DNA of 64,000 bases from Escherichia coli (lineage in GTDB: Bacteria; Pseudomonadota; Gammaproteobacteria; Enterobacterales; Enterobacteriaceae), in assembly GCF_003334765.1 (NCBI RefSeq), contig NZ_QOWT01000002.1, one strand, 5' to 3'. The notes under the pieces are model-generated. The model did not search any database. It saw nothing but the letters and a program-made list of their open reading frames with translations, and was not told where the DNA came from. Position numbers and translations under genes: made by a program. Shown one piece after another: positions 1-43,000 of this stretch. How positions within the stretch are numbered: the first letter of the stretch is position 1; each line of letters opens with the position of its first letter.

Positions 1-1458
1 AATCCGCGCGCCCGTTTTCATGATGGTTCGCCCATTACTGCCCGCGATGTAGAGTTTACTTTTCAAAAATTTATGACCGAAGGCGTGCCGCAATTTCGTC
101 TGGTCTACAAAGGCACCACCGTCAAAGCCATTGCACCGTTAACCGTGCGCATTGAGTTAGCTAAACCCGGCAAAGAAGATATGCTGAGTCTGTTTTCGCT
201 GCCGGTATTTCCAGAAAAGTACTGGAAGGATCACAAACTTAGCGACCCGCTCGCCACGCCTCCGCTTGCCAGTGGTCCGTACCGCGTTACGTCCTGGAAA
301 ATGGGGCAAAATATTGTCTATTCCCGTGTGAAAGATTACTGGGCAGCAAACTTACCGGTAAACCGTGGACGCTGGAATTTCGACACCATTCGCTACGATT
401 ATTACCTCGATGATAATGTCGCCTTTGAAGCATTTAAAGCAGGTGCCTTTGATTTGCGTATGGAAAACGACGCCAAAAACTGGGCCACGCGTTATACCGG
501 TAAAAATTTCGATAAAAAATACATCATCAAAGATGAGCAAAAGAACGAATCAGCCCAGGATACGCGTTGGCTGGCGTTTAATATCCAACGTCCGGTATTC
601 AGCGATCGCCGGGTCCGGGAAGCTATCACTCTCGCCTTTGACTTTGAATGGATGAACAAGGCGTTGTTTTACAATGCCTGGAGTCGCACGAACAGTTATT
701 TTCAGAATACCGAATACGCGGCCAGAAATTACCCCGACGCCGCGGAGCTGGTGCTTCTGGCACCAATGAAAAAAGATCTACCGTCAGAAGTCTTCACACA
801 AATCTACCAGCCGCCGGTATCCAAAGGCGATGGCTACGATCGTGACAACCTGTTAAAAGCCGACAAACTTCTCAACGAAGCGGGCTGGGTGCTGAAGGGT
901 CAGCAACGCGTTAATGCCACAACGGGTCAGCCACTCAGCTTTGAATTATTGCTTCCCGCAAGCAGCAATAGTCAGTGGGTATTGCCGTTCCAGCACAGCC
1001 TGCAACGGCTGGGTATCAACATGGACATTCGCAAGGTGGATAACTCGCAAATCACTAACCGCATGCGCAGTCGCGACTATGACATGATGCCGCGCGTATG
1101 GCGGGCGATGCCGTGGCCCAGTTCCGATTTACAGATTTCCTGGTCATCGGAATATATCAATTCCACTTATAATGCCCCCGGCGTGCAAAGCCCGGTTATC
1201 GACTCGCTGATCAACCAAATTATTGCCGCGCAGGGAAATAAAGAAAAATTACTGCCGTTGGGGCGAGCACTGGATCGCGTATTAACGTGGAATTATTACA
1301 TGCTGCCAATGTGGTACATGGCGGAAGACCGTCTCGCCTGGTGGGATAAATTCTCCCAGCCGGCCGTGCGCCCCATCTATAGCCTCGGTATCGATACCTG
1401 GTGGTATGACGTCAATAAAGCGGCCAAACTGCCGTCCGCCAGCAAACAGGGAGAGTAG
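1..1458 (+). CDS. yejA: Periplasmic oligopeptide/microcin C-binding protein of the YejABEF ABC importer (5'-truncated by window edge; frame continuous from position 1)
   Basis: ORF 73..1458 is in frame with position 1; family-5 solute-binding protein-like sequence; immediately followed by two permease genes and a double-ATPase gene. Confidence 0.9.
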
Positions 1459-2553
1459 ATGGGCGCTTACCTGATTCGCCGTCTGTTGCTGGTGATCCCA
1501 ACATTATGGGCGATTATCACCATCAACTTTTTCATCGTGCAAATTGCGCCTGGCGGTCCGGTCGACCAGGCCATCGCCGCCATTGAGTTTGGTAATGCCG
1601 GAGTATTACCCGGCGCAGGCGGTGAAGGTGTTCGTGCCAGCCATGCGCAAACGGGTGTCGGCAATATCAGCGACAGTAATTACCGTGGCGGACGCGGATT
1701 AGATCCAGAAGTGATCGCTGAGATCACTCATCGCTACGGTTTTGATAAGCCGATCCACGAACGTTACTTCAAAATGCTCTGGGACTACATCCGCTTTGAT
1801 TTTGGCGATAGCCTGTTTCGCAGCGCCTCGGTGCTGACGCTGATTAAAGACAGTCTGCCGGTTTCCATCACCCTCGGATTGTGGAGCACGCTGATTATCT
1901 ATCTGGTGTCGATTCCGTTAGGCATTCGCAAAGCTGTTTATAATGGGAGCCGCTTTGACGTCTGGAGTAGCGCATTTATCATCATCGGCTACGCCATTCC
2001 GGCCTTTTTGTTTGCCATCCTGCTGATTGTCTTCTTCGCGGGCGGCAGCTATTTCGACCTGTTCCCTCTACGCGGCCTGGTTTCCGCTAACTTTGATTCG
2101 CTGCCGTGGTATCAGAAAATCACCGATTATCTGTGGCATATCACGCTGCCGGTGCTGGCGACAGTGATTGGTGGCTTTGCGGCGCTGACCATGCTGACAA
2201 AAAACTCATTCCTTGATGAAGTGCGCAAGCAATACGTGGTGACCGCGCGTGCGAAAGGGGTAAGTGAAAAAAATATTCTCTGGAAACATGTGTTCCGCAA
2301 CGCCATGCTGCTGGTGATTGCCGGTTTTCCGGCGACGTTTATCAGCATGTTTTTTACCGGCTCGCTGCTGATTGAGGTGATGTTTTCACTCAATGGTCTG
2401 GGCTTACTGGGCTACGAAGCGACCGTCTCGCGCGATTATCCTGTAATGTTTGGTACCTTGTATATTTTCACCCTGATTGGCCTGCTGCTGAATATTGTCA
2501 GTGATATCAGCTATACGCTGGTTGATCCGCGTATTGATTTTGAGGGACGTTAA
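1459..2553 (+). CDS. yejB: ABC transporter permease
   Basis: 364 aa, multi-TM permease; start 1 nt after yejA stop; operon context. Confidence 0.93.
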
Positions 2554-3578
2554 TGTCGCGACTCAGCCCCGTCAATCAGGCCCGTTGGGCGCGTTTTCGT
2601 CATAACCGTCGCGGCTACTGGTCGTTATGGATTTTCCTCGTCTTGTTTGGTTTGAGTTTGTGTTCTGAACTTATCGCCAACGATAAACCGTTGCTGGTGC
2701 GTTATGACGGCAGTTGGTATTTCCCGTTATTGAAAAACTACAGCGAAAGCGATTTTGGCGGCCCGCTGGCAAGTCAGGCTGATTATCAGGACCCGTGGCT
2801 GAAACAACGGCTGGAAAATAACGGCTGGGTACTGTGGGCACCGATTCGCTTTGGTGCTACCAGTATCAACTTTGCTACCGATAAGCCCTTCCCTTCTCCA
2901 CCCTCCCGGCAAAACTGGCTGGGAACGGATGCCAACGGCGGCGATGTGCTGGCACGCATTCTCTATGGCACGCGGATCTCGGTTCTGTTTGGCCTGATGC
3001 TGACTCTCTGTTCCAGCGTGATGGGCGTGCTGGCGGGGGCGCTACAAGGCTATTACGGCGGTAAAGTCGATCTCTGGGGACAACGCTTTATTGAAGTATG
3101 GTCGGGGATGCCGACGCTGTTTTTGATTATTTTACTTTCCAGCGTCGTACAGCCTAACTTCTGGTGGCTGCTGGCAATTACTGTCTTGTTTGGCTGGATG
3201 AGTCTGGTCGGCGTGGTGCGGGCGGAGTTTTTACGTACTCGTAATTTCGACTACATTCGTGCGGCACAGGCGCTTGGCGTCAGCGATCGCAGTATCATCC
3301 TGCGTCATATGTTGCCTAATGCCATGGTCGCGACCCTCACCTTTTTACCGTTTATTTTATGTAGTTCGATAACCACCCTGACCTCGCTCGATTTCCTCGG
3401 CTTCGGTCTACCGCTCGGTTCACCGTCACTCGGTGAACTGCTGTTACAAGGGAAAAATAACCTTCAGGCCCCGTGGCTTGGGATCACCGCCTTCTTGTCG
3501 GTGGCGATATTATTGTCTTTGCTGATCTTTATTGGTGAAGCCGTCCGCGACGCATTTGATCCTAATAAGGCGGTGTAG
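2553..3578 (+). CDS. yejE: ABC transporter permease
   Basis: 341 aa; start overlaps yejB stop by 1 nt; hydrophobic permease sequence. Confidence 0.93.
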   Translation: MSRLSPVNQARWARFRHNRRGYWSLWIFLVLFGLSLCSELIANDKPLLVRYDGSWYFPLLKNYSESDFGGPLASQADYQDPWLKQRLENNGWVLWAPIRFGATSINFATDKPFPSPPSRQNWLGTDANGGDVLARILYGTRISVLFGLMLTLCSSVMGVLAGALQGYYGGKVDLWGQRFIEVWSGMPTLFLIILLSSVVQPNFWWLLAITVLFGWMSLVGVVRAEFLRTRNFDYIRAAQALGVSDRSIILRHMLPNAMVATLTFLPFILCSSITTLTSLDFLGFGLPLGSPSLGELLLQGKNNLQAPWLGITAFLSVAILLSLLIFIGEAVRDAFDPNKAV

Positions 3579-3579
3579 C

Positions 3580-5169
3580 ATGACGCAAACTCTGTTAGCG
3601 ATTGAAAATTTGTCGGTGGGTTTTCGCCATCAGCAAACCGTACGTACAGTAGTCAATGATGTTTCACTACAGATTGAGGCTGGCGAAACGCTGGCGCTGG
3701 TGGGTGAGTCAGGTTCAGGCAAAAGCGTTACCGCGCTGTCAATTTTACGCCTGCTCCCTTCCCCGCCGGTTGAATATCTCTCCGGCGATATTCGTTTTCA
3801 TGGCGAATCGCTGCTTCACGCCAGCGATCAAACGTTGCGCGGTGTACGCGGTAATAAGATCGCCATGATTTTTCAGGAACCGATGGTGTCGTTAAATCCA
3901 TTGCATACCCTGGAAAAACAGCTTTATGAAGTGCTTTCACTCCACCGCGGGATGCGTCGGGAAGCGGCTCGTGGCGAAATTCTTAACTGCCTTGATCGCG
4001 TTGGTATCCGCCAGGCGGCAAAACGGCTGACAGATTATCCGCATCAGCTCTCCGGCGGCGAACGGCAGCGGGTGATGATTGCGATGGCGCTGTTAACGCG
4101 ACCGGAATTATTAATTGCCGATGAACCGACCACCGCACTGGACGTCTCTGTCCAGGCGCAGATTTTACAGCTGTTGCGCGAACTGCAAGGCGAGCTGAAT
4201 ATGGGCATGCTGTTTATTACTCATAACCTCAGCATTGTCAGAAAACTGGCCCACCGCGTGGCGGTAATGCAAAACGGTCGCTGTGTCGAGCAAAATTACG
4301 CCGCTACGCTATTTGCATCACCCACTCATCCTTACACACAAAAGCTACTCAACAGTGAACCGTCAGGCGATCCAGTGCCGTTGCCAGAACCTGCCTCAAC
4401 GTTGCTGGATGTTGAACAGCTTCAGGTTGCCTTCCCCATTCGCAAAGGGATTTTGAAGCGCATTGTGGATCATAATGTGGTGGTGAAAAACATCAGTTTT
4501 ACGCTACGAGCGGGTGAAACACTGGGTTTAGTGGGCGAGTCCGGTTCCGGGAAAAGTACGACGGGACTGGCGCTGCTGCGACTGATTAATTCTCAGGGCA
4601 GCATCATCTTTGACGGTCAGCCACTGCAAAATTTAAATCGCCGCCAGCTGTTACCTATTCGTCATCGCATTCAGGTGGTATTTCAGGATCCAAACTCCTC
4701 GCTCAACCCACGACTCAACGTTTTGCAGATTATTGAGGAAGGCTTACGGGTTCACCAGCCGACGCTTTCTGCCGCACAACGCGAACAACAAGTGATAGCC
4801 GTGATGCATGAAGTGGGATTAGATCCTGAAACACGCCACCGTTATCCGGCGGAGTTCTCTGGTGGTCAGCGACAACGTATTGCGATTGCCAGGGCATTAA
4901 TTCTTAAGCCCTCGCTGATCATACTTGATGAACCGACATCATCACTCGACAAAACGGTACAGGCGCAAATATTGACGCTATTGAAATCATTGCAACAAAA
5001 GCATCAACTGGCCTATTTGTTTATCAGCCACGATTTGCACGTTGTCCGCGCGTTATGTCATCAGGTTATCATACTGCGACAAGGGGAAGTAGTGGAACAA
5101 GGACCGTGCGCGCGCGTGTTTGCCACACCGCAGCAGGAGTATACGCGTCAGCTACTGGCGTTGAGCTGA
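3580..5169 (+). CDS. yejF: ABC transporter ATP-binding protein with two fused ATPase domains
   Basis: Two Walker A motifs GESGSGKS and two signature motifs LSGGERQR / FSGGQRQR; ATG at 3580 (MTQTLLAIENL) is 1 nt after the yejE TAG; the ORF-track start at 3532 is rejected as an extension. Confidence 0.93.
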   Translation: MTQTLLAIENLSVGFRHQQTVRTVVNDVSLQIEAGETLALVGESGSGKSVTALSILRLLPSPPVEYLSGDIRFHGESLLHASDQTLRGVRGNKIAMIFQEPMVSLNPLHTLEKQLYEVLSLHRGMRREAARGEILNCLDRVGIRQAAKRLTDYPHQLSGGERQRVMIAMALLTRPELLIADEPTTALDVSVQAQILQLLRELQGELNMGMLFITHNLSIVRKLAHRVAVMQNGRCVEQNYAATLFASPTHPYTQKLLNSEPSGDPVPLPEPASTLLDVEQLQVAFPIRKGILKRIVDHNVVVKNISFTLRAGETLGLVGESGSGKSTTGLALLRLINSQGSIIFDGQPLQNLNRRQLLPIRHRIQVVFQDPNSSLNPRLNVLQIIEEGLRVHQPTLSAAQREQQVIAVMHEVGLDPETRHRYPAEFSGGQRQRIAIARALILKPSLIILDEPTSSLDKTVQAQILTLLKSLQQKHQLAYLFISHDLHVVRALCHQVIILRQGEVVEQGPCARVFATPQQEYTRQLLALS

Positions 5170-5172
5170 CGC

Positions 5173-5517
5173 TTAAAAAGGATTGTAGTTTGAAAAGGGT
5201 TCGGCAATTGCCACACCAAAATTTTTCAATCGGCATGTTGCAGCAAACTCGTCCTGGCGATTTACAAACAGGCACGGCTCACCTTCACACTCCAGCACCG
5301 AACATGGAACTTCGATGTCGCTTAACGCCTGGCTTAGTTTATACATCACCGACCATGCATTATCACCATCCGGGCTAAGCAATTTAAGCGCCACCAGGCT
5401 GTTGTCACCGCACGGTCCATTTTGCGGAATCGGTTCAACCTTCGAACCTGCGAAACCAGCAGACCAGCGATAGTTCTGCGGCAGTCGATGGACGATTGAG
5501 AGTTGTAATGAAGTCAC
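5173..5517 (-). CDS. yejG: Small conserved protein of unknown function
   Basis: 114-aa ORF convergent on yejF; matches my memory of YejG. Confidence 0.8.
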
Positions 5518-5811
5518 TTATTTTCCCCGGAAGCACATTCACTTCACAATTTGTTTACATCAATTTTAACACATCATCAACAATCCGTCTTTATACAGAT
5601 CGTAAAGATTGATGCCTCGCCTGCGTGGCCTCTATGGCTCTGATTTAAGTAATATCTGCGGGCGTGGTCACGTTTGCGGGGCTATATGTACCCGTTTCTG
5701 CGATCTAACTCAACCTTTTTAACTACAATGATGTGACTTTTTACATAAATTGATTTTACATAAAATAAACATATATCGGGGGAATGATAGATTTGTGGTT
5801 GACATGCATCA

Positions 5812-5835
5812 ACAAAGGAAGCCTTTTAGCTTCCT
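5812..5835 (-). terminator. Putative rho-independent terminator downstream of bcr
   Basis: Hairpin ggaagc-ctttta-gcttcc followed by T-rich tract on the minus strand, just 3' of the bcr stop. Confidence 0.5.
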
Positions 5836-5849
5836 CGTTGTGCAATAGA

Positions 5850-7040
5850 TCACCGTTTTTTCGGCCGACTGGCGTACAGACAGAAGAGAATGGAGCTGGT
5901 TGCGCAGAATGCAATTGACCAAATCATCGGCCATGCAGAGTTAAAGGTCGCAAGAGAAAGCAATGCGCCAACAATTGCCCCTATGCCAAAACGGAAGGTT
6001 CCTGCCAGCGAAGATGCCGTTCCCGCCATATGGGGAAACTCATCAAGAATGACCGCCATCGCATTGGATGACACCATCGACACGCAGCCCACAAACGCCG
6101 CAACGCCAACCACCAGCGACCAAAATCCCAGCCCCAGCAGCGCACTGATGACCATCCACGCTGCCATAATAAATTGTATCCACAACCCCGAGCGGAACAT
6201 ATTTAACGCGCCAATGCGGCGGACGAAGCGGCTGTTAAAGATGGTCATCACGAACAGAAAAACAATGTTTAGCGCAAAGTAATAACCAAAGTTTTCCGGC
6301 GCGACGTGGTTAATTTCAATATAAACAAACGGTCCGGCGCTTAAGAATGAGAACATCCCGGCAAAGCTGAAACCACTGGCAAGCATGTAGCTCAGGACAC
6401 GTTTATGGCGGAACAGCGCCGCAAAGTTACCAATAGTGGTACGAATGTGAAATGGCTGACGACGCTCCGGTGGTAAGGTTTCTTTAATCAGGAAGAAAAT
6501 CATTGCCGAAGCCAGAATCGCCGCTAATGCCAGGATCCAGAAGATGTAATGCCAGCTCAGCCACACCAGCACCCAGCCGCCAACTATCGGTGCCATCAGC
6601 GGTGCAATGGTTGTCACCAGCATGACAAACGACATCATCCGCGAGAACTCTTCTTTCGGGTAAATATCGCGCATCAGGGCGTTAATGACCACGCTGGCCG
6701 CAGCCGCAGCCAGCCCGTGGAAGAAACGCATCACAATCAGCTGATCGATGGTGTTTGCCAACGCACACGCCACCGCGGCGGCGGCAAACACCAGCGTACC
6801 GCCGAGCACCACCGGCTTACGCCCGAAGCTGTCTGCCATCGGCCCGTAGATTAACTGCCCCAACGCAAAGCCCAGAATATAAGTACTGAGGGTCATCTGC
6901 GTACTGCCCGCCGGTACGCCAAACTGCGCTGAAATTACCGGTAGCGCGGGCAGATACATATCAATCGACAGCGGCATCAACATGGCCAGCAGGCCAAGGA
7001 TAAAAACAATAGCAAACGACGAATGCTGTCGGGTGGTCAC
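5850..7040 (-). CDS. bcr: MFS efflux transporter (bicyclomycin/sulfonamide resistance)
   Basis: 396 aa, 12-TM MFS profile. Confidence 0.92.
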
Positions 7041-7067
7041 AACGGGCTCCTGAAAGTCATTGAAAAG

Positions 7068-7763
7068 TTAGACGACGCTGGCAATTTCTTCTTCAGTTAA
7101 CGGACGATATTCACCGGGGGCTAAATCAGCATCCAGCGTAATACCGCCAATACGTTCACGATGCAGCTCAACCACGTGGTTACCCACGGCGGCGAACATG
7201 CGTTTCACCTGATGATAACGCCCTTCGCTGATGGTCAGACGAACCTGCGTTGGGGTAATCACTTCCAGCACCGCAGGCTTAGTGAGATCTTTTTCGTTAT
7301 GCAGCTGCACGCCTTTAGCAAATTGCTCTGCCGTATCGTCAGCTACAGGTGATTCCAGTGTCACCAGATAGGTCTTCTCGCAATGATGGCGCGGAGAAGT
7401 AATGCGGTGCGACCACTGACCATCATCAGTCATCAGCACCAGACCGGTGGTATCAATATCCAACCGCCCCGCCGCATGCAGTTTCCACGCTACCGGTTCA
7501 TCAAGAAAATAGAGCACCGTTGGGTGATCAGGGTCGTCCGTGGAGCAAACATAGCCCTGAGGCTTATTGAGCATGAAGTAACGTGGACCGTGTTGCTGCG
7601 CCAGCGGGTTGCCATCGTAAGCGACATCATGTTCAGGAAGCAGTTTGAACGCTGCATTACGGACGATTTCGCCATCGACGGTGACACGATTGCCGCGGAT
7701 TTCACGCCCGGCAATAGCACGGCTAACGCCGAGTTGCTGTGCGATAAATTTATCAAGTCGCAT
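7068..7763 (-). CDS. rsuA: 16S rRNA pseudouridine(516) synthase
   Basis: 231 aa; N-terminal S4-like region and catalytic motif GRLDIDTTG. Confidence 0.93.
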
Positions 7764-7911
7764 GTGTGTGATTTTGCCTGTAAAAACGGAGGTCGGGCAT
7801 TGACCCGAAAATCTGAACTGTTGTCTGCCCAGTATAGCGGTCTAATAACATCCCTCAAGGGAAAAAGATCCATGGCATACTATTAGCAGAATAATCTACC
7901 TACGCGAGACC

Positions 7912-9672
7912 ATGATTTTTACACTTCGCCCATATCAGCAAGAAGCCGTGGATGCCACGCTCAACCATTTTCGTCGTCATAAAACCCCTGCCGTTATCGT
8001 GCTGCCCACCGGCGCAGGTAAAAGCCTGGTGATAGCGGAACTGGCACGGCTGGCTCGTGGTCGCGTGCTGGTGCTGGCACACGTTAAAGAACTGGTGGCG
8101 CAAAACCATGCAAAGTATCAGGCGCTGGGGCTGGAAGCCGATATTTTTGCCGCCGGGCTAAAGCGCAAAGAGAGCCACGGTAAAGTGGTATTTGGCAGCG
8201 TGCAGTCTGTCGCCCGTAATCTTGATGCCTTTCAGGGTGAATTTTCGCTGTTGATTGTCGATGAATGTCACCGTATTGGTGACGATGAAGAGAGCCAGTA
8301 TCAGCAAATCCTCACTCACCTGACAAAAGTGAATCCCCACTTACGCCTGCTGGGGCTGACTGCCACGCCTTTTCGATTGGGCAAAGGCTGGATCTACCAG
8401 TTTCATTATCACGGCATGGTACGCGGCGATGAGAAAGCCCTTTTCCGTGACTGCATTTATGAGCTGCCGCTGCGTTATATGATTAAACACGGCTATCTGA
8501 CGCCGCCAGAACGACTGGATATGCCAGTAGTGCAATACGATTTCAGCCGCTTGCAGGCACAGAGTAACGGGCTGTTCAGCGAAGCCGATCTCAACCGTGA
8601 GCTGAAAAAACAACAACGTATTACCCCGCACATCATCAGCCAGATTATGGAGTTTGCTGCAATGCGCAAAGGGGTGATGATTTTTGCCGCGACGGTTGAA
8701 CACGCAAAAGAGATTGTGGGATTACTGCCTGCCGAAGATGCAGCACTGATTACTGGCGACACCCCCGGCGCTGAGCGCGATGTGTTAATTGAAAATTTTA
8801 AAGCCCAGCGTTTTCGCTATCTGGTCAACGTCGCGGTACTGACCACCGGATTTGACGCCCCGCACGTCGATCTTATCGCCATTCTGCGCCCTACCGAATC
8901 AGTGAGTCTTTACCAACAAATTGTCGGGCGCGGTCTGCGTCTCGCTCCGGGCAAGACTGATTGCTTAATTCTTGATTATGCGGGTAATCCTCACGATCTC
9001 TACGCGCCGGAAGTTGGTACACCAAAAGGCAAAAGTGACAACGTTCCGGTACAGGTTTTCTGCCCTGCCTGCGGTTTTGCCAACACCTTTTGGGGGAAAA
9101 CGACCGCCGACGGGACATTGATTGAACACTTTGGTCGTCGCTGTCAGGGATGGTTTGAAGATGACGACGGTCATCGCGAACAATGTGACTTCCGTTTCCG
9201 TTTTAAAAATTGCCCGCAATGTAACGCGGAAAACGATATTGCCGCCCGCCGCTGCCGCGAATGTGACACCGTACTGGTTGATCCGGACGATATGTTAAAA
9301 GCGGCGCTACGACTGAAAGACGCGCTGGTATTACGCTGTAGCGGCATGTCTTTGCAACATGGGCACGACGAGAAAGGCGAATGGTTGAAAATCACCTATT
9401 ACGATGAAGACGGCGCGGATGTGAGTGAGCGTTTCCGTCTGCAAACACCTGCCCAGCGTACCGCCTTCGAGCAGCTTTTTATCCGCCCGCATACGCGCAC
9501 ACCGGGCATCCCGCTGCGCTGGATCACCGCCGCCGATATCCTCGCCCAGCAAGCCTTATTGCGACACCCGGATTTTGTCGTCGCCCGCATGAAAGGCCAG
9601 TACTGGCAGGTGCGTGAAAAAGTGTTCGATTACGAAGGTCGTTTTCGTCTGGCGCACGAATTACGCGGTTAA
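7912..9672 (+). CDS. radD: Superfamily-2 DNA repair helicase RadD (YejH)
   Basis: 586 aa; Walker [13 protein letters not shown] box ([10 protein letters not shown]), C-terminal Cys-rich zinc-finger-like CPACG/CPQCN/CRECD. Confidence 0.92.
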
Positions 9673-9688: not shown

Positions 9689-10081
<393 letters not shown>

Positions 10082-38896: not shown

Positions 38897-39051
38897 TGCA
38901 AGGGAACTTTTTAAGATTATTGCGGAATGGCGAAATAAGCACCTAACATCAAGCAATAATAATTCAAGGTTAAAATCAATAACTTATTCTTAAGTATTTG
39001 ACAGCACTGAATGTCAAAACAAAACCTTCACTCGCAACTAGAATAACTCCC

Positions 39052-39144
39052 GCTATCATCATTAACTTTATTTATTACCGTCATTCATTTCTGAATGTCT
39101 GTTTACCCCTATTTCAACCGGATGCCTCGCATTCGGTTTTTTTT
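39052..39144 (+). ncRNA. micF: MicF antisense sRNA (represses ompF translation)
   Basis: 93-nt sequence GCTATCATCATTAACTTTATTTATTACCGTCATTCATTTCTGAATGTCTG...CGGATGCCTCGCATTCGGTTTTTTTT ending in an intrinsic terminator; divergent from ompC. Confidence 0.9.

Positions 39145-42800: not shown

Positions 42801-42994
<194 letters not shown>

Positions 42995-43000
<6 letters not shown>

What the first reader, a model, noticed from the sequence alone, without database searches (positions are those of the whole stretch)
1..5169. yejABEF peptide importer with a double-ATPase subunit
This is a complete ABC importer operon (only the yejA 5' end is cut), with overlapping or abutting start/stop codons and a YejF carrying two full ATPase domains in one polypeptide. 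From established work this system imports microcin C and contributes to antimicrobial-peptide resistance, so it is relevant to antibiotic uptake studies, though not novel.
Basis: established knowledge. Interest (0 to 1): 0.25.

Follow-up and report, generated by a model that had tools for sequence, protein, structure and literature searches.

The report
E. coli yejABEF microcin C importer
This stretch is the ordinary, well-studied Escherichia coli yejABEF peptide-uptake operon, almost base-for-base identical to the laboratory K-12 copy, so it is correctly identified and not new.

Summary
Window 1-5169 holds the last 485 of 604 codons of yejA, then complete yejB, yejE and yejF on the + strand.

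- **Identity to K-12:** the DNA differs from E. coli K-12 MG1655 at 2 of 5169 bases. YejA (residues 120-604), YejB and YejF are 100% identical to K-12. YejE has one change, N110D, and D110 is the species-typical allele.
- **Distribution:** the stretch is found in 5426 of 5426 complete E. coli genomes.
- **Gene junctions:** they are tight: TAG|ATG (no gap), TAATG (1-nt overlap) and TAG-c-ATG (1-nt gap).
- **YejF:** it has two complete ABC ATPase domains, each with Walker A, Walker B, signature and H-loop motifs. The two halves are 43% identical.

Two corrections apply. The mechanical ORF for yejF starts at TTG 3532, but the real start is ATG 3580. The antimicrobial-peptide-resistance role was shown in Salmonella, Brucella and Sinorhizobium, not in E. 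coli, and its mechanism is unresolved. The microcin C import role was shown genetically in E. coli itself. This is already known and of low interest. The physiological substrate of Yej remains an open question, but this sequence adds nothing to it.

The parts
1..1458 (+). yejA, the 3' part (codons 120-604 of 604, plus stop). It encodes a periplasmic cluster C, family-5 solute-binding protein. The signal peptide and the N-terminal extension that yields the self-peptide LGEPRYAFNFN are outside the window.
   Evidence: The frame-1 translation is open from base 1. It is 100% identical to K-12 YejA residues 120-604. Pfam SBP_bac_5 matches with E 5.7e-62. E. coli YejA has solved structures 7z6f, 8fsq, 8fsr, 8fss and 7atr.
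1459..2553 (+). yejB, the first transmembrane permease subunit (364 aa).
   Evidence: NCBIfam NF011712 YejB scores 793 bits against a cut-off of 445, over positions 1-364 of 364. Pfam BPD_transp_1 matches residues 152-359. It is 100% identical to K-12.
2553..3578 (+). yejE, the second transmembrane permease subunit (341 aa). Its ATG overlaps the yejB stop by 1 nt. It carries D110, where K-12 has N110.
   Evidence: NCBIfam NF011596 scores 781 bits against a cut-off of 439, full length. Pfam BPD_transp_1 matches residues 158-338 and OppC_N matches 12-44. It is identical to K-12 at 340 of 341 residues. The G2880 allele is in at least 4409 of 5426 genomes, against 355 for the K-12 allele.
3580..5169 (+). 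yejF, the fused double ATPase (529 aa) with two nucleotide-binding domains in one chain.
   Evidence: NCBIfam NF011713 YejF (equivalog) scores 1100 bits against a cut-off of 834, over positions 1-529 of 529. Pfam finds two ABC_tran domains. The motifs and 100% identity to K-12 are. The closest solved fused relatives are M. tuberculosis OppD (8j5q) and DppD (8wd9).
5145..5172 (.). A perfect 9-bp inverted repeat, GCGTCAGCT / AGCTGACGC with a 10-nt loop, straddling the yejF stop codon at the 3-nt convergent junction with yejG. It may be a 3'-end hairpin for one or both transcripts. This is inferred only.
   Evidence: Sequence and RNA fold are. No canonical stem plus T-tract terminator was found in 5000-6000 by the scan.

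Best explanation
This is the chromosomal yejABEF operon of Escherichia coli, a binding-protein-dependent (type I) ABC importer of the oligopeptide/dipeptide/nickel (Opp/Dpp/Nik) family.

The proposed mechanism is as follows. Periplasmic YejA captures a peptide in an unusually large cavity and docks on the YejB-YejE heterodimeric membrane channel. YejF supplies both nucleotide-binding domains in one polypeptide and hydrolyses ATP to drive the peptide into the cytoplasm. Tightly abutting or overlapping stop and start codons are consistent with translational coupling, which would favour equal amounts of the subunits.

The one firmly established substrate in E. coli is the Trojan-horse peptide-nucleotide antibiotic microcin C and its analogues, so the transporter determines sensitivity to that antibiotic. 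The physiological substrate is not known.

Basis for each step. Shown here: gene identity, domain architecture, motifs and junctions. Shown in the literature: the microcin C phenotype of each single deletion, the YejA structure, and RydC control of yejABEF mRNA expression. Inferred: translational coupling, the stoichiometry, and the alternating-access mechanism, by homology with the solved Opp/Dpp systems.
For: -: identical DNA in RefSeq E. coli genomes is annotated yejA/B/E/F, and the stretch is present in 5426 of 5426 complete genomes.
- there are 2 nt differences in 5169 against K-12 MG1655, and the proteins are 100%, 100%, 99.7% and 100% identical.
- NCBIfam YejB, YejE and YejF models match full length at about 1.3 to 1.8 times their curated cut-offs.
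- Pfam finds SBP_bac_5, two BPD_transp_1 domains (one per permease), and two ABC_tran domains plus oligo_HPY in YejF.
- the query, full-length K-12 YejA, matches the solved E. coli YejA structures; the window encodes residues 120-604 of that protein without change.
- YejF aligns end to end (residues 5-527) with the fused M. tuberculosis DppD of the solved DppABCD importer.
- (PMC3985669): the RydC sRNA controls yejABEF mRNA expression.
Against: Nothing contradicts the identification.

- No experiment was done on this particular strain.
- The promoter, the 5' UTR and the first 119 codons of yejA are outside the window, so expression and the integrity of the yejA 5' end could not be checked in the window itself. 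They are intact in the 100%-identical strain H3.
- The natural substrate and the AMP-related role remain unresolved in the literature.
Confidence: 0.97

Rival explanations
1. The main physiological job of the system is not nutrient or antibiotic uptake but envelope defence or signalling. In one version YejBEF removes antimicrobial peptides from the periplasm or membrane independently of YejA. In another it imports a YejA-derived self-peptide as a periplasmic stress signal. Microcin C uptake would then be an exploited side activity.
For: (PMC10924461): in Salmonella the yejF deletion is AMP-sensitive but the yejA deletion has no phenotype. E. coli YejA co-purifies with, and selectively binds, peptides from its own N-terminal extension (LGEPRYAFNFN), and it showed no binding to the AMPs tested. 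Searches (PMC4994006 abstract; PMC10924461 introduction): the Brucella yej operon is required for polymyxin B resistance. One search also lists the Sinorhizobium NCR-peptide work (PMC8406287).
Against: This concerns the function of the known system, not the identity of the locus, and it is compatible with the best explanation. No E. coli AMP-resistance phenotype turned up in the papers read here. The self-peptide signalling idea is offered explicitly as speculation by its authors. Nothing in this window bears on it, because the YejA N-terminal extension is outside the window.
Confidence: 0.25
2. The locus is a different Opp/Dpp/Nik-family importer, such as a glutathione Gsi, nickel Nik or dipeptide Dpp system, that was mislabelled as Yej.
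For:: YejF also hits GsiA (547 bits), which is likewise a fused double ATPase, along with Dpp, Opp and Nik ATPase models. The YejA fragment's only NCBIfam hits are weak ones to NikA- and OppA-type models.
Against: All of those hits fall below their curated cut-offs: GsiA scores 547 against 1077, and NikA 79 against 393. The Yej-specific models match full length above their cut-offs. The proteins are 99.7 to 100% identical to K-12 b2177-b2180. Synteny is that of K-12: pdeN upstream, yejG-bcr-rsuA-radD downstream.
Confidence: 0.01

Closest known systems
E. coli K-12 MG1655 yejABEF (b2177-b2180)
   Same: The gene order, lengths (604, 364, 341 and 529 aa), junctions and flanking genes are the same. 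The DNA is identical at 5167 of 5169 bases, and YejA (120-604), YejB and YejF are 100% identical.
   Different: There is one synonymous change in yejA (window 432) and one change in YejE, D110 here against N110 in K-12 (window 2880). The window's allele is the common one: at least 4409 genomes carry it against 355 for the K-12 allele. The window lacks the first 357 nt of yejA.
Mycobacterium tuberculosis DppABCD and OppABCD importers (PDB 8wd9 and 8j5q), whose ATPase is a fused double-NBD chain
   Same: They are the same transporter family and have the same unusual architecture, with both nucleotide-binding domains in a single polypeptide. YejF aligns over residues 5-527 with M. tuberculosis DppD (E 6e-110) and in two stretches with OppD Rv1281c (E 1e-118).
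   Different: They are distant orthologues or paralogues in another phylum with different substrates. M. tuberculosis OppD is longer (612 aa against 529).
E. coli DppBCDF and OppBCDF with separate ATPases (PDB 8z1v, 8z21), and GsiABCD with the fused ATPase GsiA
   Same: They share the Opp/Dpp/Nik family, the SBP_bac_5 binding protein, two BPD_transp_1 permeases, and ABC_tran plus oligo_HPY ATPases.
   Different: In Dpp and Opp the two ATPases are separate 327-336 aa proteins. The YejF halves are about 265 aa each and align only to about residues 2-263 of DppD and DppF. Pfam oligo_HPY matches only model positions 1-30 and 1-22 of 65. YejF therefore lacks most of the C-terminal extension of those ATPases. 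It has only four scattered cysteines, read from the sequence. From memory, that extension carries an Fe-S cluster in some family members; this was not tested here.
Salmonella, Brucella, Sinorhizobium and Agrobacterium Yej systems
   Same: They are orthologous operons with the same four-part architecture and act as promiscuous peptide importers. Substrates reported include AMPs, NCR peptides, phazolicin and peptidoglycan peptides (PMC4994006, PMC8406287, PMC10128002, PMC9790009).
   Different: The phenotypes reported there (AMP resistance, virulence, symbiosis, cell-wall recycling with the alternative binding protein YepA) have not been shown for E. coli. S. meliloti YejA is only 38% identical to E. 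coli YejA.

Membership tests
E. coli YejABEF (microcin C ABC importer) | Near-identity to the genetically characterised K-12 proteins YejA, YejB, YejE and YejF | tested here: met
   Identities are 100% (residues 120-604), 100%, 99.7% and 100%, with 2 nt differences in 5169.
E. coli YejABEF (microcin C ABC importer) | Scores above the curated NCBIfam cut-offs for the Yej-specific models | tested here: met
   YejB scores 793 against 445, YejE 781 against 439 and YejF 1100 against 834, all full length. No Yej-specific NCBIfam model matched the YejA fragment. It is identified through K-12 identity and the PDB entries.
E. coli YejABEF (microcin C ABC importer) | Chromosomal context of the K-12 locus: pdeN upstream and convergent yejG, bcr, rsuA and radD downstream | tested here: met
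   The upstream side was seen only in the identical strain H3 and in K-12, not in the window.
E. coli YejABEF (microcin C ABC importer) | Loss of any one of the genes confers microcin C resistance | not testable with these tools
   This is shown for E. coli in the literature (Novikova 2007 via PMC10924461). It has not been tested in this strain.
Binding-protein-dependent type I ABC importer, Opp/Dpp/Nik family | A family-5 (cluster C) periplasmic solute-binding protein | tested here: met
   Pfam SBP_bac_5 matches with E 5.7e-62. The signal peptide is outside the window.
Binding-protein-dependent type I ABC importer, Opp/Dpp/Nik family | Two distinct permease subunits, each with a BPD_transp_1 domain | tested here: met
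   YejB residues 152-359; YejE residues 158-338, plus OppC_N.
Binding-protein-dependent type I ABC importer, Opp/Dpp/Nik family | Two nucleotide-binding domains with Walker A, signature, Walker B and H-loop motifs, here fused in one chain | tested here: met
   One search finds two ABC_tran domains. One search finds the motifs in both halves. The second signature reads FSGGQ (translation).
Antimicrobial-peptide resistance transporter (Sap-like or Yej-like role) | A deletion increases sensitivity to cationic AMPs in the organism in question | not testable with these tools
   This has been reported for Salmonella, Brucella and Sinorhizobium only. No E. coli phenotype was found in the papers read, and E. 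coli YejA did not bind the AMPs tested.

The most novel reading that the evidence does not exclude
The most novel reading not excluded is that the E. coli Yej system has a still-unknown primary function, with microcin C uptake as a hijacked side activity. Candidates are import of a YejA-derived self-peptide as an envelope-stress signal, or YejA-independent handling of antimicrobial peptides by YejBEF. This is an open question about a known system. Nothing in this window's sequence distinguishes it from the K-12 reference, and the YejA N-terminal extension needed to examine the idea lies outside the window.
Probability: 0.2. Interest if true: 0.45.

Novelty: already known. Interest (0 to 1): 0.07.

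Why it matters
It matters only as context. YejABEF is the inner-membrane entry route for microcin C and for engineered Trojan-horse peptide-antibiotic conjugates, so its universal presence in E. coli (5426 of 5426 complete genomes) is relevant to the target spectrum and to resistance by loss of function. This copy tells us nothing that the K-12 reference does not already. The one small point of note is that K-12's YejE N110 is a minority allele, and this window carries the common D110.

Tried and rejected
1. I considered that the locus might be another fused-ATPase peptide importer, such as Gsi. I rejected this because the GsiA, Dpp, Opp and Nik models all score below their cut-offs while the Yej models score above theirs, and because identity and synteny with K-12 are essentially complete.

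2. I considered the longest yejF ORF, which starts at TTG 3532. I rejected it in favour of ATG 3580, which gives the 529-aa K-12 and NCBIfam length and sits 1 nt after the yejE stop.

3. I looked for an intrinsic terminator after yejF and for internal promoters. Scan counts were at the level of shuffled sequence (7 against 6.7 and 7 against 7.1) and none lay at 5100-5600. Only a 9-bp inverted repeat over the yejF stop was seen.

4. I looked for a promoter in the pdeN-yejA spacer of K-12, which is outside the window. No consensus match was found, so whether yejA has its own promoter could not be judged from sequence.

5. I tried to read the primary paper, Novikova 2007 (PMC2168686). It is not held, so its results are cited second-hand through PMC10924461.

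6. I looked for E. coli AMP or colistin evidence in PMC9687012. It contains only a rydC table entry and no yej phenotype.

7. The Rfam scan of the whole window found no RNA element inside 1-5169.
Full report
**Observation**

Listing ORFs over window 1-9000 shows four long co-directional reading frames on the + strand. The first is a frame open from base 1 to a TAG at 1456-1458. The others are 1459-2553 (364 aa), 2553-3578 (341 aa) and an ORF ending at 5169. Frame 1 translates without a stop from base 1, so the first gene is cut by the window edge.

Reading the junctions gives three tight joins:
- yejA/yejB: gagTAGATGggc, stop and start abutting.
- yejB/yejE: cgtTAATGtcg, a 1-nt overlap.
- yejE/yejF: gtgTAGcATGacg, a 1-nt spacer.

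Each start is preceded by a purine-rich Shine-Dalgarno-like motif. One correction is needed: the mechanical ORF for the last gene starts at TTG 3532, whereas the real start is ATG 3580 (529 aa).

**Identity**

Megablast of window 1-5600 against all complete RefSeq E. coli genomes found the stretch in 5426 of 5426 genomes. It was always chromosomal, at 95-100% identity, and annotated yejA, yejB, yejE, yejF and yejG. In the 100%-identical strain H3 the annotated coordinates map exactly to window 1-1458, 1459-2553, 2553-3578 and 3580-5169. Full-length yejA is 1815 nt, so 357 nt (119 codons) lie upstream of the window.

Against K-12 MG1655 (b2177-b2180) the 5169 bases differ at two positions, 432 and 2880. 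YejA residues 120-604, YejB and YejF are 100% identical. YejE differs by N110D.

Thirty-one-base probes centred on position 2880 matched at least 4409 of 5426 genomes for the window's allele and 355 for the K-12 allele, the latter including K-12 derivatives such as MG1655 and C600. The window therefore carries the species-typical residue and K-12 is the outlier.

**Family tests**

- NCBIfam: the curated Yej models match full length, well above their cut-offs. YejB NF011712 scores 793 against 445, the YejE-type NF011596 scores 781 against 439, and the YejF equivalog NF011713 scores 1100 against 834.
- Related models (GsiA, DppD/F, OppD/F, NikD/E, Sap) all fall below their own cut-offs.
- Pfam: SBP_bac_5 in YejA, BPD_transp_1 in YejB and YejE, plus OppC_N in YejE, and two complete ABC_tran domains in YejF at 25-185 and 302-454.
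- Motifs in YejF: both halves carry Walker A (GESGSGKS at 42 and 319), Walker B (LLIADE at 177, LIILDE at 446) and an H-loop (211, 480). The signature is LSGGE at 157, and the C-terminal half has FSGGQ (read from the translation). The halves are 43% identical over 245 columns.

The 'double ATPase' claim is correct.

**Structures**

E. coli YejA itself has been solved (7z6f, 8fsq, 8fsr, 8fss, 7atr). For YejF, the closest solved chains are the fused ATPases of the M. tuberculosis OppABCD (8j5q) and DppABCD (8wd9) importers. Next come the separate DppD/DppF and OppD/OppF chains (8z1v, 8z21).

Each YejF half aligns only to about the first 260 residues of those 327-336 aa ATPases, and Pfam oligo_HPY is matched only over its first 22-30 of 65 positions. 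YejF therefore lacks most of the C-terminal extension found in Dpp and Opp ATPases. It has only four scattered cysteines, read from the sequence. Whether this relates to the Fe-S clusters that I recall being reported for some family members was not tested.

**How it works**

By homology and architecture this is a type I, binding-protein-dependent ABC importer. YejA binds the peptide in the periplasm, YejB and YejE form the channel, and YejF provides both ATP sites.

The literature read here (PMC10924461) reports the following:
- Larger microcin C analogues are also carried, with a tentative range of 7-13 residues (Vondenhoff 2011).
- YejA has an exceptionally large cavity and co-purifies with peptides from its own N-terminal extension.

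RydC, an Hfq-dependent sRNA, controls yejABEF mRNA expression (PMC3985669). That target region lies upstream of the window.

Translational coupling through the abutting and overlapping codons is an inference from the sequence.

**Qualification of the AMP-resistance claim**

[quoted passage not shown] In Salmonella the yejA deletion had no phenotype, and E. coli YejA showed no binding to the AMPs tested. The authors conclude that the simple 'YejA delivers AMPs for import' model is not correct. I found no E. coli AMP phenotype; the colistin TraDIS paper mentions only rydC.

**Surroundings**

The window is collinear with E. coli strain H3 over all 64 kb, with 4 mismatches. Downstream of yejF lie convergent yejG, whose stop is 3 nt from the yejF stop, and then bcr, rsuA, radD, rplY, yejK, yejL, yejM/lapC and tRNA-Pro.

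No canonical terminator follows yejF. A perfect 9-bp inverted repeat at 5145-5153 and 5164-5172 spans the yejF stop. Rfam found no RNA family inside 1-5169.

**Novelty and verdict**

This is a textbook E. coli locus, essentially identical to the reference strain in which its function was defined. It is already known, and interest is low, around 0.07. The open questions about Yej (its natural substrate, the YejA self-peptide and the AMP mechanism) are real, but they belong to the system in general and this sequence does not advance them.

Noticed in passing
window 5145-5175: The yejF stop (TGA, 5167-5169) and the stop of convergent yejG (5173-5175 on the - strand) are only 3 nt apart. A perfect 9-bp inverted repeat, GCGTCAGCT / AGCTGACGC with a 10-nt loop, straddles the yejF stop. 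There is no T-tract on either strand, so it is not a canonical intrinsic terminator. Where the two convergent transcripts end is unclear.
   Followed up: partly
window 2880 (YejE codon 110): The window encodes YejE D110, where K-12 MG1655 has N110. A 31-nt probe with the window allele matches at least 4409 of 5426 complete E. coli genomes, and the K-12 allele matches 355, including K-12 derivatives such as MG1655 and C600. The reference strain used to characterise Yej therefore carries the minority allele.
   Followed up: yes
window 13670-16261 (- strand): The autotransporter gene yejO, next to tRNA-Pro (13491-13567), is intact here (2592 nt). In K-12 MG1655 it is a pseudogene split by IS5K.
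   Followed up: yes
window 30501-31035 (+) and 42805-42995 (-): Rfam naRNA4/CssrE gives five tandem hits spaced about 113 nt apart in the eco-mqo intergenic region, and two more between rcsB and rcsC. From memory, these are REP/BIME-type repeat arrays. I did not analyse them further.
   Followed up: no
window 32940-34583 (- strand): yojI is annotated as the microcin J25 efflux ABC transporter. It lies about 28 kb from the microcin C importer yejABEF, so one window holds an ABC exporter that protects against one microcin and an ABC importer that sensitises to another. I see no evidence of a functional link.
   Followed up: no
window 39051-39144 (+), 9750-9775 (+): The MicF sRNA lies upstream of, and divergent from, ompC (114 bits). 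The L25 ribosomal-protein leader lies upstream of rplY (47 bits). Both are expected K-12-type features.
   Followed up: no
NZ_CM173464.1 (strain E423), hit H4; not in the window: In this cloacal-swab isolate the match to window 1-5600 is split into two pieces spanning 6672 bp, with an IS30-like ISApl1 transposase annotated inside the yej region. This would be a natural insertional disruption of the microcin C importer locus. I did not determine which gene is hit.
   Followed up: no
L002 4284-4364 (K-12, upstream of the window): The pdeN-yejA spacer is only 81 nt and has no sigma-70 consensus match. A 9-pair stem followed by a T-rich tail lies inside the start of yejA (L002 4451-4473), in the codons for the YejA N-terminal self-peptide LGEPRYAF. 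It is probably a chance match but sits in the 5' part of the mRNA. I did not locate the RydC pairing site.
   Followed up: no
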